Shown: in pieces, positions 44,101 through 50,100 of the stretch
How positions within the stretch are numbered: position 1 is the first letter of the stretch
How the letters are laid out: every line of letters begins with the position of its first letter
NCBI GenBank assembly: GCA_036785375.1
Contig: JAWMAR010000063.1
Coordinates: 4,340,001-4,404,000 of the forward strand
DNA length: 64,000 bases
Reading direction: 5' to 3'
From: Leucoraja ocellata
Lineage: Eukaryota
Made by a program: the position numbers

Positions 44101-47100
44101 AAAAGTGTTTCCTCGTCTCCGTTCTAAATGGCTTACCCTTTATTTTTAAACTTGAAATTAAGAGTGCTCTAGTTTGGGCTACTGATGTTTGTTGGTTTGA
44201 GGTGCTTGTGTAAGAGTCAGGTGCCAGGATGAGTTAGTGAGTAGATTGGGGATGTGACATAGTGTGGATATGGTCAGAAGATCACTGACTGCAATGTGAA
44301 GCAAGCTAACAATTTTCCAGCACACTTTATTTTTTTTAAATAAAATCAAACTAAATAGTGTACAAAACCTCGGCACTTCATAATTCAATTCCTTGCTAAT
44401 GTTATTTCAGTTTCTCTATCCTTATCTCTCTTTCCTTTTCCTCTCCATTTAAAAGTCTAAATACTTTTGCTGGAGGTTAGGGAACCCTTTAGCTGACAGC
44501 AACAACATCCAGATGCAGCCTTTATTGCAAACATCTGATTCAGATACTGAAAACAACGGAATTAGCAAGAAAAAAATTGAGCTTCTACCAGGAGGTCAAC
44601 TTTCCTGCTGCTTGATCACATGGTTCCCTATTCATGTACACTTCTAAAGAAAACGTTATGTTCATGTATAATTGATAGCAAGTTTTCCACAGATGTTAGC
44701 TCAAGAGACACCATTGGGAACCTCTATAAATAGATGATCGGTTGTAGCCAGCAGTGTGATATGATGAATATCCCCATAAGTGAGACGAGCCTGATAAATT
44801 GTGAAGAATGATATCAGAAGAAAGTTATGCTCAATCTCAGGAGTGGAGTTATTTGCCACATCACACTATTAATCTGAATATGTTCTGCTTTTAGGAAGGT
44901 GCTCACTGCTTTGTCATGGGGATCTTTGACAGTTCCTCCCCAAGACCCTATCCCCATTGGGGAGACCACAGGTGCCTGAGGACACCACCACCTGCAGACT
45001 CCCCTCCACCGTGCATGCTCTTCTGACTCAGAGAATCATTACCTTGCCTTTCGCTTTGACGGGTCAGACTTTTAATACTCTCCACCCACTCTGGGAGAAC
45101 CTTCATTATGCACCTAGCAGCTCTTACAAGGAAGTACCTCCACATCACCTTCTCAAGGAGGCAATTAGAGATGAGCAATAACTGTTGTGTACGCTAACGA
45201 TGTCCACAATCTGATACAGGGACAGAAATGATTGTGTACTGGATTTGGGTGATTCTCACAACATGGAAGGAGGCCATTCTGCCCATCAAGTCTATGTCGA
45301 CTGTCAGAGCATTCCCAAACATTATTTCCTTGTAATTCATTCACTCTTATTTGCTCTTCCATCCTCCTCCTACCACCCACCTGTACTGGGCTAACTTACA
45401 GTAGCCATCTATCTAATAATCAAATTAGCATATTTTTGGAATGTGGGAGAAAAACAGATTTAAAGTGTATTTTTATATCGGAAATTGAGAGGTTCTTGCT
45501 TAGGAAGGGCATCGTAGGTTATGGGGAGAAGGCAGGAAAATTAGGTTGAGGGGGAAATGTAGCCATGATTGAATGGCTCGATGTGCTAAATGGCCTAATT
45601 CTGCTCCTATGCCCAATGATCTTATGGTCTTCTGGTTGCCTGTCACCATCCCATTCCCAACATGATCTTTGATCTGTGTCCTTCTGCAATGTTATAATGA
45701 AGGCCAATGCAAGCTTCAGGAACAGTTCCTCATCTCTTGACTGGGCACGTTGCAACCAGCCGGACTCAATATAAAATTCTCCAACTTCCATTCAATGGCT
45801 TTCAATCTAATTTGATGGGTTATAGGTTATAGGCCATTGAATTGAGGTTGGAGAACTGGCCAACTTTAGACAATGCATACCTTGTTTAGCTTAGTTTAGA
45901 GATACAACATGCAAGCAGGCCCTTCAGCCCACTGATTCCAAGCCGACCAATGATCACCTGCGCACAAGTTCAATCCAATACACTATTGCAATTTACAGAG
46001 GCCAATTAACCTATAAACCTGCACGTCTTTGGAAAGTAGGAGGAAACCGGAGAGTCCTGAAAAAAACCACGCGGGCACAAGGAGAACGTGCAAACTCCAT
46101 ACAGAGAGCCCACCCCCGTCGCGGTTTTCCTTTCATTGTCATAGCATGTCCCTATAGTCATCTCCATGGATTGTCACCTTGTGGTGGTGTAAAAGCTTGT
46201 GTGGTCCTGAGATCCTGAGAGTGATGCCGTCTGGAGCTATGTTCCTGATAGGGCCACCCATGGTGGTAAGGCCAAGGGGGAGGACTCTGACGAATAGCAA
46301 TCCAACCAAGACCTCAATGGTGGAACAGGCGGATGATGGTTACTGACCTTAGGTGGAGCGTCACAACGGCTGGGTAGATGGATGAAGGCTGCGGCAGAAA
46401 AGGGTCTCCGGTCGTATTGGACTCAATGCCATTGGATCCTGACCCAGATCTGTCAAGGACCGTGTGGTGGCTGTCTGTGCACCAGTCTCCCCTCGTTAAA
46501 CAAAGTCACGCACTGGCGTCCTCCAACGCTGGAGCCACCCACGGTCAGCCATAAGAAATAGGCAATGGTATACGATATTACACAGACTACACAACATTAG
46601 CAACATGTTACGCAGAGGAGCCCTCAAAAGTTCCCCCTGAAAAGTTTCCCGCACAGAAACGTTTCCTTTGTTCCACTTACCTCCCTCACCACCTTCTTTG
46701 CTCTCTATCCAAGCTTATTTCTCCCTTTCTCTGCAGATGGATCCCAAATCTAAAACATTCATTATTTATCTTTTCCCAGATTCTGCCTAACCTGCTGAAA
46801 TTTTCCAGCGTTACACAGAAAAGCTGGAGAAACTCAGCGGGTGCAGCAGCATCTATGGAGCGAAGGAAATAGGCAACGTTTCGGGCCGAAACCCTTCTTC
46901 AGACTGATCGGGGGTGGGGGTGGGTGGGGACAAGAAAGGGAAAAGGAGGAGTAGCCAGAAGGCTGGAGGGTGGGAGGAGACAGCAGGGGAGCTGAGGAAG
47001 GGGAGGAGACAGCAAGGACTAACAGAATTGGGAGAATTCGATGTTCATGCCCCGGGGGTGTAGAGTCCCCAAACGGAATATGAGGTGCTGTTCCTCCAAT

Positions 47101-50100
47101 TTCCGGTGCTGCTCGCTGTGGCCATGGAGGAGACCCAGGACAGAGAGGTCGGAGGCGGAGTGGACTCTACACCCCCGGGGCATGAACATCGAATTCTCCC
47201 AATTCTGTTAGTCCTTGCTGTCTCCTCCCCTTCCTCAGCTCCCCTGCTGTCTCCTCCCACCCTCCAGCCTTCTGGCTACTCCTCCTTTTCCCTTTCTTGT
47301 CCCCACCCACCCCCACCCCCGATCAGTCTGAAGAAGGGTTTCGGCCCGAAACGTTGCCTATTTCCTTCGCTCCATAGATGCTGCTGCACCCGCTGAGTTT
47401 CTCCAGCTTTTCTGTGTAACCTTCGATTCTCCAGCATCTGCAGTTCCCTCTTAAACACGAAATTTTCCAGCATTTGTTTTGTTTTCATTTTGTAGCAAAA
47501 TGCTAGTTTTCTTTTGCAGTTCGACCTGTAAGGATTGTTTTCATAGAACATCATGTAACCGCTGTGGGATGATGGGAATGTTGATGTAGAGCTCAAGGTT
47601 TTCAACAACATATGGATGAATGAGTAAAAGGTGTTAAAATTTATATATTATTGATTTACACATATGAGGATTGGGAATTACTCCATGGGAATCAATTGCA
47701 ATTAACATTATCTCAAGGTTGTAGAGCCAAACAGCGTTAGAATGGAATATTTTCTGAAGAGGACCATGTACATAAGTGCCGATACAAAGTAGCAATTAGA
47801 TAAAATAAGTTTTCATCACAAATAGTAGATACAGTAAAGGATTATCGGCAGCTGCCCTGGTGAAACCATAACTGCTTTCCAGAATTTTAAAGCGTAGAAG
47901 TAACCGATAATTGAAATTGAAGCTGGTGAAAACCACTTAATGCCTATTGTAAAATTGGATATCATCTTTATCTGCCGAAATGCTACACTTATTAAAAATA
48001 ATTTAATTCTGCGACCAGAACCACCACATATCTCGGAGGGTATGAGGAGATGTGGTGAGGACTGTTCAGAGCTGGTCGGAGAGGGGGGGGGGGGGGGGGG
48101 GAGGAACAACTCCAGAACTGTTTGGAGTCTGTAGACTGGGCAATGCTCAGGGATTCGGCAATGGACCTGAACGATTACGTCATAGTCGTTACAGACTTCA
48201 TAAAGAAATATGTGGAGGACTGCATCCCAACAAAAACCTTCCGAGTGTTTCCCAATCAGAAGCCTTGGATGAACTTTGAGATCCGCACTATTCTGAAGAC
48301 CAGACACCAGGCATTCATGTCCGAAGATACAGAGGTCTACAAGAAGTCCAGATACAACCTTGGTAAGGACATCAAAGAGGCCAAAAGGGACATTTGCTCC
48401 AAGCTGGAGGATGAGATAGATGTTCGGCAACTGTGGCGGGGCTTGAATGCCATCACTTCCTCCAAGGCGAAATCAGGAGGCAGCTCCAATGTCAGCGTAA
48501 CATCACTCCCTGACAAGCTCAATGCGTTCTACGCATGCTTTGATAGGGAGAATACTGATGTGCCTTCCAGAGCCCCCATTCGCCATGATGGTATTTTGGT
48601 CACAATCACAGAGGTTGACGTCAGAAAATCCTTCAGAGGGGTGAACCCTTGGAAAGCACCTGGACCTGATGGTATACCTGGTCGTGTTCTCAAAACCTGT
48701 GCGGACCAACTGGCGGGAGTTTTTACAGACATTTACAACCTCTCACTTCTGAGGTCTGAGGTTCCCACCTGCTATAAAAGGACATCAATTATACCGGTGC
48801 CCAAGAAGAGCAAGGAGACGTGCCTCAACGACTATCATATAACCATATAACCATATAACAATTACAGCACGGAAACAGGCCATCTCGGCCCTACAAGTCC
48901 ATGCCGAACAAATTTTTTTCCCCTTAGTCCCACCTGCCTGCACTCGTACCATAACCCTCCATTCCCTTCTCATCCATATGCCTATCCAATTTATTTTTAA
49001 ATGATACCAATGAACCTGCCGACACCACTTCCACTGGAAGCTCATTCCATACCGCTACCACTCTCTGAGTAAAGAAGTTCCCCCTCATATTGCCCCTAAA
49101 CTTCTGTCCCTTAATTCTGAAGTCATGTCCTCTTGTTTGAATCTTCCCTATTCTCAAAGGGAAAAGCTTGTCCACATCAACTCTGTCTATCCCTCTCATC
49201 ATTTTAAAGACCTCTATCAAGTCCCCCCCTTAACCTTCTGCGCTCCAGAGAATAAAGACCTAACTTATTCAACCTATCTCTGTAACTTAGTTGTTGAAAC
49301 CCAGGCAACATTCTAGTAAATCTCCTCTGTACTCTCTCTATTTTGTTGACATCCTTCCTATAATTTGGCGACCAAAATTGTACACCATACTCCAGATTTG
49401 GTCTCACTGGACTATCGACCAGTGGCACTAGCGTCTGTGGTGATGAAGTGCTTTGAGAGGCTGATCATGGTGCAAATCATACCTCAACAAAAACCTGGAC
49501 CCACTGCAGTTTGCTTACCGCCACAACAGATCAACGGTGGATGCGATCTCGCTGGCTCTCCACTCCACTCTGGACCACTTGGACAACAAAAACTCATATG
49601 TCAGACTGTTATTCATTGACTACAGCTCAGCATTTAATACAATCATCCCCTCCAAGCTGGTTATTGGTGGAAATGTGTCAGCCTCGATAACAATCAGCAC
49701 AAGAGCACCTCAAGGCTGCGTGCTCAACCCCCTGCTGTACTCACTCTATACTCATGACTGCGTAGCCGGCCACAGTGCAAACTCCATCATCAAGTTCGCC
49801 GACGACACCACTGTTGTGGGACGTATCATTGATGGAGACAAGAGAGTATAGAGGTGAGATCGACCGACTGACCAAATGGTGCCAGTACAATAACCTGGCT
49901 CTCAACACCAGCAAAACCAATGAACTGATTGTGGACTTTGGAAGGGGTAGCATGGGGACCCACAGTCCCGTTTATATCAAGGGTGGAAAGGGTCAAGAGC
50001 TTCAAATTCCTGGGCGGGCATATTTCTGAAGATCTCTCCTGGTCCGAGAACACTGATGCAATTATAAAGAAAACACATCAGCGCCTCTACTTCCTGAGAA

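What the first reader, a model, noticed from the sequence alone, without database searches (positions are those of the whole stretch)
46810..47458. Perfect 259-bp inverted repeat: a very recent PLE insertion with GIY-YIG end and two intact hammerheads
Seen: arms with no visible mismatch, an open GIY-YIG C-terminus running through the spacer into the left arm, a hammerhead core on each strand pointing outward, and a 13-bp TSD. The arms are almost identical to those of the element at 6281. Inference: this subfamily is or was recently active, so an autonomous partner should exist in the genome. The locus could form a cruciform or 259-bp dsRNA about 31 kb upstream of POU3F1.
Basis: partly seen in the sequence, partly recalled or inferred. 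Interest (0 to 1): 0.72.

Follow-up and report, generated by a model that had tools for sequence, protein, structure and literature searches.

The report
Head-to-head Penelope retrotransposon insertion, skate-like genome
This is a young, dead-on-arrival insertion of a Penelope-like retrotransposon made of two truncated copies joined head to head, a textbook architecture for this class, and its anatomy fits both cut DNA ends having primed their own copy.

Summary
The arms 46810-47068 and 47162-47420 are 259 nt and 100% complementary, with a 93-nt spacer. The 649-bp unit is flanked by an exact 13-bp target-site duplication.

It is two 5'-truncated copies of a Penelope-like element (PLE), joined head to head.
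- The left copy (minus sense, 352 nt) carries the last 46-47 codons of the GIY-YIG endonuclease ORF. It ends at the internal 3' terminus.
- The right copy (plus sense, 297 nt) starts 93 nt later. It carries the extra 38-bp "tail".

Each copy holds element sequence that the other lacks. Neither can be a copy of the other, which excludes snap-back self-priming, fold-back artefact and later inverted duplication. My inference is that both 3' ends of one staggered break primed reverse transcription, one at each of the two PLE start sites.

Each arm has a complete minimal hammerhead core (2 matches in the window, 0 expected). Rfam, folding and covariation give it no support, so activity is unshown.

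The target was an old decayed tail of the same repeat family (E 2e-7). Two older insertions in the window have the same plan. No PLE reverse transcriptase was found in the window. The architecture is already described, so this is a new member of a known kind. The host looks like a cartilaginous fish, not human.

The parts
46731..46809 (+). Old, decayed tail of the same repeat family that served as the target; it is cut by the new insertion at its right end
   Evidence: nhmmer with an HMM of 16 older copies: model positions 38-116, E 2e-7, 25.5 bits. It also aligns with older copies.
46797..46809 (.). Left copy of the 13-bp target-site duplication
   Evidence: identical 13-mer at 47459-47471.
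46810..47161 (-). Left PLE copy, minus sense, 352 nt, 5'-truncated. It consists of the ORF end, the stop, the 3' region with the hammerhead core, and the internal (tail-less) 3' terminus at 46810.
   Evidence: tblastn to P0001: 85% identity over 47 aa.
47022..47161 (-). Last 46-47 codons of the PLE endonuclease ORF (stop at 47019-47021). The spacer 47069-47161 is the part that the right copy lacks.
46873..46904 (-). Minimal hammerhead core of the left copy: CUGAAGA, one extra A, a 4-bp helix II with UUCG loop, then GAAACGUU. The inferred cleavage site is after 46875.
   Evidence: pattern match 46875-46902; features read.
47162..47458 (+). Right PLE copy, plus sense, 297 nt, 5'-truncated 93 nt later than the left copy. 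It ends at the distal 3' terminus.
47326..47357 (+). Minimal hammerhead core of the right copy. The inferred cleavage site is after 47355.
   Evidence: pattern match 47328-47355.
47421..47458 (+). 38-bp PLE 'tail', present at this end only
   Evidence: It lies outside the repeat. The same extension ends the tailed copies at 6282 and 23188. It matches the 30-40-bp tail described in PMC8557442 and PMC11167929.
47459..47471 (.). Right copy of the 13-bp target-site duplication

Best explanation
The locus is one integration event of a Penelope-like retrotransposon (PLE, the type with a C-terminal GIY-YIG endonuclease). It left two 5'-truncated, non-coding-competent copies joined head to head.

Shown:
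- The left copy (minus sense, 352 nt) ends at the internal 3' terminus.
- The right copy (plus sense, 297 nt) ends 38 nt further on, at the distal terminus.
- A 13-bp TSD brackets both copies.
- The target was an older tail of the same repeat family.

Inferred:
- The element's endonuclease made a staggered break with 13-nt 3' overhangs inside the old tail.
- The 3'-OH of each strand primed reverse transcription of PLE RNA. The top strand started at the internal start site and the bottom strand at the distal one.
- The two antisense cDNAs stopped after 352 and 297 nt. They were joined 3' end to 3' end with little apparent overlap (about 1 nt inferred, untested), and the gaps were filled.

The product has no reverse transcriptase and only a stump of the endonuclease, so it cannot move by itself. 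Its two hammerhead cores are inherited cargo. In any read-through transcript they would be locked in a 259-bp hairpin and could not fold as ribozymes.
For: Anatomy.

PLE identity.
- The peptide is 85% identical to the C-terminus of P0001 (E 1.5e-14; tblastn).
- It aligns to the last ~46 residues of shark, sea-urchin and unnamed (ENA-sourced) proteins. In 4 of these 5 (P0002-P0005) the alignment shows an RYIDD-type RT block and a C-terminal endonuclease; P0007 has a variant of the RT block and lacks the endonuclease end.
- Of the 4 such proteins scanned, 2 reach Pfam's GIY-YIG cut-off: 23.2 and 24.6 bits against 22.6.

Hammerhead core. 2 matches, 0 expected. [quoted passage not shown]

Two primings. 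The left copy holds 93 nt that are absent from the right copy. The right copy holds 38 nt that are absent from the left copy. Neither could therefore have been templated by the other.

Recurrence. Two older loci have the same plan: head-to-head copies, one tail, a TSD.
- 6315-6393 / 6395-6473: 97% complementary, 1-nt spacer, 14-bp TSD.
- 22954-23050 / 23056-23152: 86% complementary, 5-nt spacer, 8-bp TSD.
In all 3 pairs the tail-less terminus falls within 1 nt of the same element position, and the tailed terminus is also shared.

Literature.
- An inverted 5'-truncated copy plus a 30-40-bp tail at one end is the typical PLE arrangement (PMC8557442, passages; PMC3846280, passages).
- A purified PLE protein cleaves and extends both DNA strands, and starts reverse transcription at two internal sites whose spacing equals the tail (PMC11167929, main text).

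Self-targeting. The left flank matches the older-copy HMM at E 2e-7 and ends exactly at the insertion point.
Against: No read-level data were available, so the assembly of a perfect 259-bp palindrome-like region could not be checked. PLE inverted structures are known to trouble assemblies (PMC8557442).

The window has no PLE RT, so family placement rests on 46-47 aa plus architecture. Pfam does not recognise the peptide itself. P0001, the closest protein, looks like a chimeric gene model (a LINE-like RT joined to a PLE endonuclease) and is below the GIY-YIG cut-off (16.9 bits).

Priming from both strands is inferred from the product, not observed. I cannot tell whether one RNA or two were used. 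An RNA from a master locus that already carried the inverted repeat is not excluded, because the inner junction could only be sought inside the 64-kb window (self-hits only).

The hammerhead gets no support from Rfam, RNAalifold (0 pairs), pair counts (76.9% of cells paired against 75.7% in shuffles, reached by 161 of 500 shuffles), monomer folding (z +1.10) or dimer folding (core pairing -13.3 against an MFE of -31.5 kcal/mol).
Confidence: 0.75

Rival explanations
1. Snap-back self-priming. One cDNA folded back on itself and copied itself, as proposed for PLE head-to-head repeats in PMC3846280 (passage).
For: The two older pairs have near-perfect palindromic junctions with 1- and 5-nt spacers, which is the pattern that paper cites.
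Against: At this locus each copy has sequence the other lacks: a 93-nt 5' extension in the tail-less copy and a 38-nt tail in the other. A strand copied from the other copy cannot contain either. The small spacers in the older pairs also fit two identical antisense cDNAs that can only anneal at short palindromes. This second point is my inference.
Confidence: 0.03
2. The inverted repeat was already present in a transcribed master copy, and the whole hairpin RNA was retrotransposed in one ordinary single-strand priming.
For: The inner junction could not be sought outside the window. PLE partial tandems and inverted units are known to be transcribed (PMC3846280).
Against: The left boundary coincides, to within 1 nt, with the tail-less terminus seen in independent copies. 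That is expected for a start of reverse transcription, not for a random 5' truncation or a transcript start. The three pairs in the window have different arm lengths (259, 79, 97 nt) and different junctions, so each was made separately. Copying through a perfect 259-bp RNA hairpin is difficult (general knowledge).
Confidence: 0.08
3. Two separate insertions landed side by side in opposite orientation (a nested or adjacent event).
For: This family does hit its own tails. About 20 tail fragments lie in the 64 kb.
Against: A single 13-bp TSD brackets the pair, and there is none around either copy alone. There are 0 differences in 259 nt between the copies. The two other loci show the same paired plan.
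Confidence: 0.04
4. Assembly artefact: a fold-back or chimeric read turned into a palindrome.
For: Perfect identity of the arms. Published warnings that PLE inverted structures disturb assemblies (PMC8557442). No reads were available.
Against: A fold-back would mirror the flanking DNA as well. It would not end in a TSD, would not leave a 38-nt one-sided tail, and would not leave a 93-nt asymmetric centre. Older, mutated loci with the same plan show that the architecture is biological.
Confidence: 0.04
5. A DNA transposon or MITE with 259-bp terminal inverted repeats.
For: Terminal inverted repeats plus a TSD.
Against: The arms are the 3' end of a retroelement ORF plus its 3' region. One end carries 38 extra nt. 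TSD length varies among the pairs (13, 14, 8 bp) and so does arm length, as expected for target-primed reverse transcription and not for a transposase.
Confidence: 0.01

Closest known systems
Canonical PLE insertion architecture: an inverted 5'-truncated copy beside the unit and a 30-40-bp tail at one end. Described in PMC8557442 (Fig. 2 legend and text, passages seen) and, for Pen2a_Av of Adineta vaga, in PMC3846280 (passages seen).
   Same: Head-to-head inverted copies, a one-sided tail (38 bp here, 31 bp in Pen2a_Av), a short TSD around the whole unit (13 bp here, 8-10 bp there), a hammerhead in the repeated 3'/pLTR region, and insertion into another copy of the family.
   Different: There is no full-length ORF and no direct pLTR pair. 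Both copies are short stumps of 352 and 297 nt. The host appears to be a cartilaginous fish. The subfamily is not one named in the papers I read.
PAc (Poseidon of Anolis carolinensis) in vitro system, PMC11167929 (main text read)
   Same: Two discrete start sites for reverse transcription, separated by the length of the tail. Both DNA strands are cleaved and extended. The top-strand nick inferred here falls just before an ATT, the motif reported as preferred.
   Different: That work is in vitro on a chosen target. It did not link both ends of one product. Here the two ends of a single natural product each show a different start site. In PAc the ORF starts at stem II of the hammerhead; no ORF start could be assigned here.
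Minimal hammerhead ribozymes of metazoan PLEs, PMC4209133 (parts 1-2 of 4 read)
   Same: [quoted passage not shown]
   Different: Helix II has only 4 bp with a UUCG loop, against 6-8 bp reported. Helix I has only 2 bp, like the D. virilis variant. H17 is U in this young subfamily and C in the older copies of the window.
L1 twin priming
   Same: The second nicked strand primes on the element's RNA and gives an inverted 5' part, all within one TSD.
   Different: In twin priming the inverted and direct parts come from different, essentially non-overlapping stretches of one RNA. Here 259 nt are present in both orientations, and the second priming is at a defined internal start site.

Membership tests
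Penelope-like elements with C-terminal GIY-YIG endonuclease | PLE-type reverse transcriptase | tested here: inconclusive
   No RT at the locus or in the window. tblastn with 8 proteins hit only the endonuclease ends at 47162-46968 and 45681-45788. That is expected for 5'-truncated copies. In the alignment of relatives sharing the peptide, 4 of 5 (P0002-P0005) show an RYIDD-type RT block, and P0007 shows a variant of it. Pfam RVT_1 reaches its cut-off in only 1 of the 4 scanned. That RYIDD is PLE-typical is my recollection.
Penelope-like elements with C-terminal GIY-YIG endonuclease | [quoted passage not shown] | tested here: met
   The 46-aa peptide aligns to the last residues of the endonuclease domain: 85% identity to P0001, 52-54% to the shark proteins. 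P0002 and P0005 pass Pfam's GIY-YIG cut-off, 2 of 4 scanned. Caveats: the GIY and YIG motifs lie upstream of the truncation point, and the peptide alone gets no Pfam hit.
Penelope-like elements with C-terminal GIY-YIG endonuclease | [quoted passage not shown] | tested here: met
   38 bp at 47421-47458, present on the right only. The same holds in the pairs at 6282-6473 and 22954-23188.
Penelope-like elements with C-terminal GIY-YIG endonuclease | Tandem or inverted arrangement of 5'-truncated copies inside one short TSD | tested here: met
   Head-to-head copies and a 13-bp TSD.
Penelope-like elements with C-terminal GIY-YIG endonuclease | Hammerhead motif in the repeated 3'/pLTR region | tested here: met
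   The core pattern is present once per copy, with 0 expected by chance.
Minimal hammerhead of PLEs (PMC4209133) | Core boxes, an extra nucleotide between 9 and 10.1, G10.1-C11.1, palindromic 15.2-16.2 | tested here: met
   Read at 47328-47355: CUGAAGA, A, GGGU-UUCG-GCCC, GAAACGUU.
Minimal hammerhead of PLEs (PMC4209133) | Helix I of 4-5 bp and a long helix II (6-8 bp) | tested here: not met
   Only 2 bp can be drawn for helix I and 4 bp for helix II. The paper reports a 2-bp helix I for the D. virilis variant.
Minimal hammerhead of PLEs (PMC4209133) | Structure supported by covariation | tested here: inconclusive
   16 copies from the window. RNAalifold found 0 pairs. Pair counts equal the shuffles: covariation score 0.208 against 0.192, reached by 129 of 500 shuffles. 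The copies are decaying fragments, so little signal is expected.
Hammerhead ribozyme families of Rfam | Match to a curated covariance model | tested here: not met
   No hammerhead family at gathering score on the window, nor at E<=10 on 46700-47560.
Hammerhead ribozyme (any) | Self-cleavage | not testable with these tools
   Folding does not favour the ribozyme fold. Published relatives need dimers or protein (PMC4209133, PMC11167929).
L1-style twin priming | Inverted and direct parts derived from non-overlapping stretches of one RNA | tested here: not met
   259 nt are present in both orientations.
TIR DNA transposon / MITE | Symmetrical ends and a TSD of fixed length | tested here: not met
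   The 38-nt asymmetry. TSDs are 13, 14 and 8 bp and arms are 259, 79 and 97 nt in the three pairs.

The most novel reading that the evidence does not exclude
PLE integration is a concerted, two-ended reaction on a single RNA. One reverse-transcriptase protomer of a dimeric particle starts from one DNA end at the internal start site (the 'leader'). The second protomer starts from the other DNA end at the distal site 38 nt behind it (the 'follower').

This would explain two things:
- why a head-to-head pair carries exactly one tail (3 of 3 clear pairs here);
- why the tail-less copy reaches as far as, or further than, the tailed one (93 nt further here; equal within 1 and 5 nt in the two older pairs).

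The focal locus would then be a natural record of that reaction. It would also count against the self-priming model for PLE inverted repeats.
Probability: 0.2. Interest if true: 0.55.

Novelty: new member of a known kind. Interest (0 to 1): 0.3.

Why it matters
For genome annotation the locus is ordinary: a dead PLE fragment pair in a repeat-rich intergenic region 31 kb from POU3F1.

Its value is as an unusually clean specimen. There are no mutations between the arms, the TSD is exact, and both kinds of PLE 3' terminus occur in one event. Each copy also carries sequence the other lacks.

That last point lets sequence alone discriminate between two published ideas about how PLE inverted repeats arise: self-priming, and extension from both cleaved strands. 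It points to the second. A genome-wide census of such pairs could turn this single case into a test of the PLE integration mechanism.

A perfect 259-bp inverted repeat is also a potential source of hairpin RNA or of local instability. The 93-nt spacer makes cruciform extrusion unlikely (general knowledge, not tested).

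Tried and rejected
- Rfam on the whole window at gathering score gave 0 matches. At E<=10 on 46700-47560 it gave 14 weak matches. All were plant or animal miRNA or lncRNA models that score the long hairpin; none was a hammerhead.
- Pfam on the 62-aa ORF gave 0 families.
- RNAalifold on 16 tail copies gave no consensus structure. Counting helix I and II pairs on them gave nothing above shuffles, although the true register beats slid registers (76.9% against at most 49.5% of cells paired). That is expected when a structure is read from the same sequences.
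- Monomer MFE folding was no better than shuffles: 175 of 200 shuffles fold at least as well for the 91-nt stretch. The dimer MFE prefers another fold.
- CpG content did not separate the young copy from older copies.
- Search for an autonomous partner:
  - One search gave 1 hit among 15 candidates.
  - One search gave 6 hits among 139 candidates, the closest 63% identical to P0001's endonuclease.
  - One search gave 41 hits at E<=1e-3, of which 3 are longer than 400 aa, none a close full-length relative.
- A fourth head-to-head pair at about 61262-61480 was seen by nhmmer and by eye. The repeat finder did not confirm it and its copies are only roughly 75% alike, so I left it out of the counts.
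- MAFFT could not place the short right flank on the older copies. The continuation of the old tail beyond the right TSD is therefore untested.

Not done:
- The host genome, the closed collections metagenome contigs and viral contigs, and reads were not available. Genome contigs holds only bacteria and archaea and was not used.
- Supplementary figures of PMC4209133 (vertebrate minimal-hammerhead alignments) and of PMC11167929 (Figs S1, S2) were closed. They could bear on the hammerhead comparison and on the start sites.
- The literature searches listed no paper on PLEs of skates or rays. That is weak evidence about what is in print.

Full report
OBSERVATION

The repeat is real and exact. The repeat finder reports arms 46810-47068 and 47162-47420: 259 nt, 100% complementary, 93 nt apart. 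A script count gave 0 mismatches of 259 and showed that the match breaks at the very next base on both the inner and the outer side.

The 13-mer GAAATTTTCCAGC stands at 46797-46809 and again at 47459-47471. The inserted unit is therefore 46810-47458, 649 bp. The last 38 nt (47421-47458) lie outside the repeat.

As single-stranded DNA the unit folds into one hairpin of -382.1 kcal/mol. Twenty shuffles average -103.9, giving z = -48.

The window has one N run, 8511-8710, which I left alone.

The host is not human. The POU gene at 14482-15612 (-) has Pfam Pou and Homeodomain matches. Its best named relative is POU3F1 of the shark Cetorhinus maximus at 94% identity, and most of the best-scoring named hits are POU3F1. 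The closest relative of the element's peptide comes from the skate Leucoraja erinacea.

WHAT THE TWO HALVES ARE

Read in sense, the locus is two copies of the same retroelement 3' end, pointing outward.

The left copy is on the minus strand, 47161 down to 46810, 352 nt. It has three parts:
- 140 nt of open reading frame;
- a stop at 47019-47021;
- 209 nt of 3' region.

The right copy is on the plus strand, 47162-47458, 297 nt. It starts 93 nt later in the element, so it has only 47 nt of ORF (stop at 47209-47211). It then runs 38 nt beyond the point where the left copy ends. The 93-nt 'spacer' is therefore not foreign DNA. It is simply the extra 5' reach of the left copy.

FAMILY

The 46-aa element-derived peptide has no Pfam match of its own. 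A word-indexed search among longer proteins found one relative, P0001. It is an uncharacterised Leucoraja erinacea protein of 236 aa, 85% identical over the whole peptide, E 1.5e-14 (1 hit among 15 candidates).

P0001 has a strong RVT_1 match and a sub-threshold GIY-YIG match (16.9 bits against a cut-off of 22.6). By eye its RT part looks LINE-like, so I take it for a chimeric gene model. That judgement rests on my recollection of RT motifs.

Searching with P0001's endonuclease part found 6 longer proteins among 139 candidates. They come from whale shark, zebra shark, bamboo shark, a skate, a sea urchin and one unnamed record. In the alignment four of the five aligned (P0002-P0005) show an RYIDD-type RT block, a linker and a C-terminal Cys-rich YIGET...AEH...NxxF endonuclease. 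P0007 shows a variant of the RT block and stops short of the endonuclease end. The window peptide covers the last ~46 residues (85, 54, 52, 52, 39 and 16% identity).

Of the 4 proteins scanned, 2 pass Pfam's GIY-YIG cut-off (23.2 and 24.6 bits) and 2 do not (18.9 and 17.7). The peptide is therefore the tail end of a GIY-YIG endonuclease ORF fused to an RT. That combination defines canonical PLEs (PMC8557442 abstract; PMC11167929 main text). The GIY and YIG motifs themselves lie upstream of the truncation. One Cys conserved in P0001-P0004 is Gly in the window copy.

A full HMMER pass over 1.84 billion representatives gave 41 hits at E<=1e-3. Most are short fragments; 3 of the 41 exceed 400 aa, and none is a close full-length relative. 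tblastn of 8 of these proteins against the window hit only this locus and an older endonuclease fragment at 45681-45788. No PLE RT was found.

HAMMERHEAD

Each copy has CUGAAGA, one extra A, a 4-bp helix II closed by UUCG, then GAAACGUU. The pattern CTGANGA-N10-16-GAAACGTH occurs twice in the window, at 46875-46902 (-) and 47328-47355 (+). It occurs in none of 100 shuffles.

PMC4209133 (parts 1-2 of 4 read) lists four features as the non-imposed hallmarks of PLE minimal hammerheads. [quoted passage not shown] All four are present here. That paper also mentions pairs of such motifs on opposite strands 100-700 bp apart.

Several results do not support a working ribozyme:
- Helix I can be drawn with only 2 bp.
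- No Rfam hammerhead model matches, even at E<=10.
- The 91-nt monomer does not fold better than shuffles (z +1.10).
- A dimer prefers another fold (-31.5 against -13.3 kcal/mol for the double-hammerhead core pairs).
- The 16 full-length tail copies of the window give no covariation. They are decaying fragments, so this says little either way.

The older copies all carry at least one core change or deletion, or are truncated within the core. I therefore call the cores intact and the ribozymes unproven. The published relatives cleave poorly as monomers (PMC4209133), and the one tested in a PLE needed the protein (PMC11167929). In a transcript through this locus the sense core would be paired with its antisense twin in the 259-bp stem. 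That last point is my inference.

THE FAMILY IN THE WINDOW

nhmmer with the right copy finds 20 stretches, 2 of which are the focal copies. An HMM of 16 older copies finds 28 at E<=0.002, including its 16 training copies by construction.

A young subfamily is shared with 6282-6473 (93.4-97.5% identity over 81-121 nt) and 24572-24649 (92.3% over 78 nt).

Two older loci repeat the plan.
- 6315-6393 / 6395-6473: 79-nt arms, 97% complementary, 1-nt spacer, a 14-bp TSD (CCGTGTCTAACCCT). The tail is on the left copy only.
- 22954-23050 / 23056-23152: 97-nt arms, 86% complementary, 5-nt spacer, an 8-bp direct repeat at the borders. The tail is on the right copy only.

In all 3 pairs the tail-less copy ends within 1 nt of the same element position, and the tailed copy ends at a shared distal position. 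A possible fourth pair near 61262-61480 is too decayed to count.

TARGET

The left flank 46731-46809 matches the older-copy HMM from the hammerhead box to the point of insertion (model 38-116, E 2e-7). The element therefore landed inside an old tail of its own repeat family, about a dozen nucleotides before that tail's own internal terminus.

This fits published self-targeting. The D. virilis endonuclease recognises a Penelope fragment that includes the tail, and PAc was assayed on its own ORF-pLTR junction (PMC11167929). The inferred top-strand nick falls just before an ATT, the motif reported there as preferred. This is one site only, so it is weak.

MECHANISM

Shown by the sequence: one TSD around both copies; two different, reproducible 3' termini 38 nt apart, one per copy; and each copy has sequence the other lacks.

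From the last point it follows that neither copy was templated by the other. That removes snap-back self-priming, the model offered for head-to-head PLE repeats in PMC3846280 (passage). It also removes later inverted duplication and a fold-back read artefact.

Inferred: the geometry of the TSD means both strands ended in 3'-OH overhangs of 13 nt. Each primed reverse transcription of PLE RNA, one from the internal start site and one from the distal start site. The two antisense cDNAs were then joined 3' to 3'. The His codon that straddles 47162|47161 matches a His that is conserved in all five aligned relatives other than P0001, and it is included in the tblastn match to P0001. This suggests about 1 nt of overlap at the joint.

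The model is the natural counterpart of what a purified PLE protein does in vitro. It cleaves and extends both strands, with two start sites whose spacing equals the tail (PMC11167929).

It differs in that 259 nt are copied twice and the second priming uses a defined site.

The near-zero spacers of the two older pairs can be explained by two identical antisense cDNAs that can only anneal at short palindromes. This is again my inference.

AGE AND CONSEQUENCES

Zero differences in 259 nt bounds the divergence between the arms at 1.16% (95%), or 0.58% per arm. The insertion is young, but the sequence alone does not date it, and conversion between the arms is possible. The copies cannot encode anything useful, so the insertion was dead on arrival. 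Hairpin RNA and instability are possibilities only. A 93-nt centre disfavours cruciform extrusion (general knowledge).

COMPARISON AND VERDICT

An inverted 5'-truncated copy, a one-sided 30-40-bp tail, a hammerhead in the repeated region and a short TSD are the textbook PLE arrangement (PMC8557442, passages; PMC3846280, passages). PLE-derived hammerhead repeats are reported in one chondrichthyan genome in a 2026 preprint (10.64898/2026.07.22.740005, abstract and passages).

The locus is thus a new member of a known kind. Its one point of wider interest is that its asymmetry argues from sequence alone for priming at both DNA ends. With three pairs only, it also hints at a rule of one tail per pair.

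LEFT OPEN

The following stayed unchecked:
- reads, the host genome and other individuals;
- the closed collections metagenome contigs and viral contigs;
- the supplementary figures of the two key papers.

Noticed in passing
window 46731-46809 (+): The insertion target is itself an old, decayed tail of the same repeat family (E 2e-7). The new element cut it about a dozen nucleotides before that tail's own internal terminus, which suggests that the family homes to its own 3' region.
   Followed up: partly
window 6282-6473 and 22954-23188: Two older head-to-head PLE pairs have arms of 79 and 97 nt, spacers of 1 and 5 nt, and TSDs of 14 and 8 bp. Each has exactly one tail. Both junctions sit at short palindromic stretches in or beside the hammerhead (helix II, and the CAGNCTG just before the core).
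   Followed up: partly
window 61262-61480: A possible fourth head-to-head pair has a CUGAUGA-type core in the plus copy and a tail on the minus copy. The copies are only about 75% alike and the repeat finder did not call it.
   Followed up: partly
whole window: Tail fragments of this repeat are very dense: 20 nhmmer hits with the young copy as query, and 28 at E<=0.002 with a profile of older copies, in 64 kb. Tailed and tail-less termini both occur among the single copies.
   Followed up: partly
window 45681-45788 (+): A second, older fragment of the PLE endonuclease C-terminus lies 1 kb upstream of the focal element (52.8-58.3% identity to P0001-P0003 over 36 aa). No hammerhead tail was detected after it.
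   Followed up: no
window 48059-48850 and 49929-50456 (+): Long ORFs directly downstream of the element may be fragments of a LINE-type retrotransposon; this is my impression of the translations and was not tested (Pfam found no family for the first ORF). The second matches Pfam ALKBH8_N (E 6.8e-14). I recall that such matches are common in fish LINE ORFs.
   Followed up: no
proteins P0001 (Leucoraja erinacea) and P0006 (Rhinoraja longicauda, named neuromedin-U receptor 1): Public gene models carry this PLE endonuclease end as their C-terminus. P0001 joins it to a LINE-like RT. In P0006 it is residues 454-498 of a receptor. Both are probably annotation chimeras caused by the repeat.
   Followed up: no
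protein P0003 (Stegostoma tigrinum), C-terminal extension: The read-through tail of this shark model ends ...SLMKGLRPKRQLLCS. This parallels the window's frame through the hammerhead (...SLKKGFGPKRCLFPS). The hammerhead region after the ORF is therefore probably conserved in shark PLEs. This is inferred from protein only.
   Followed up: no
window 43110-43922 (both strands): Long overlapping ORFs of 270 and 168 aa lie on opposite strands 3 kb upstream of the element. Neither the ORFs nor the base composition of this stretch was examined.
   Followed up: no
window 8511-8710: A run of 200 N (gap or masked). It was left untouched.
   Followed up: no
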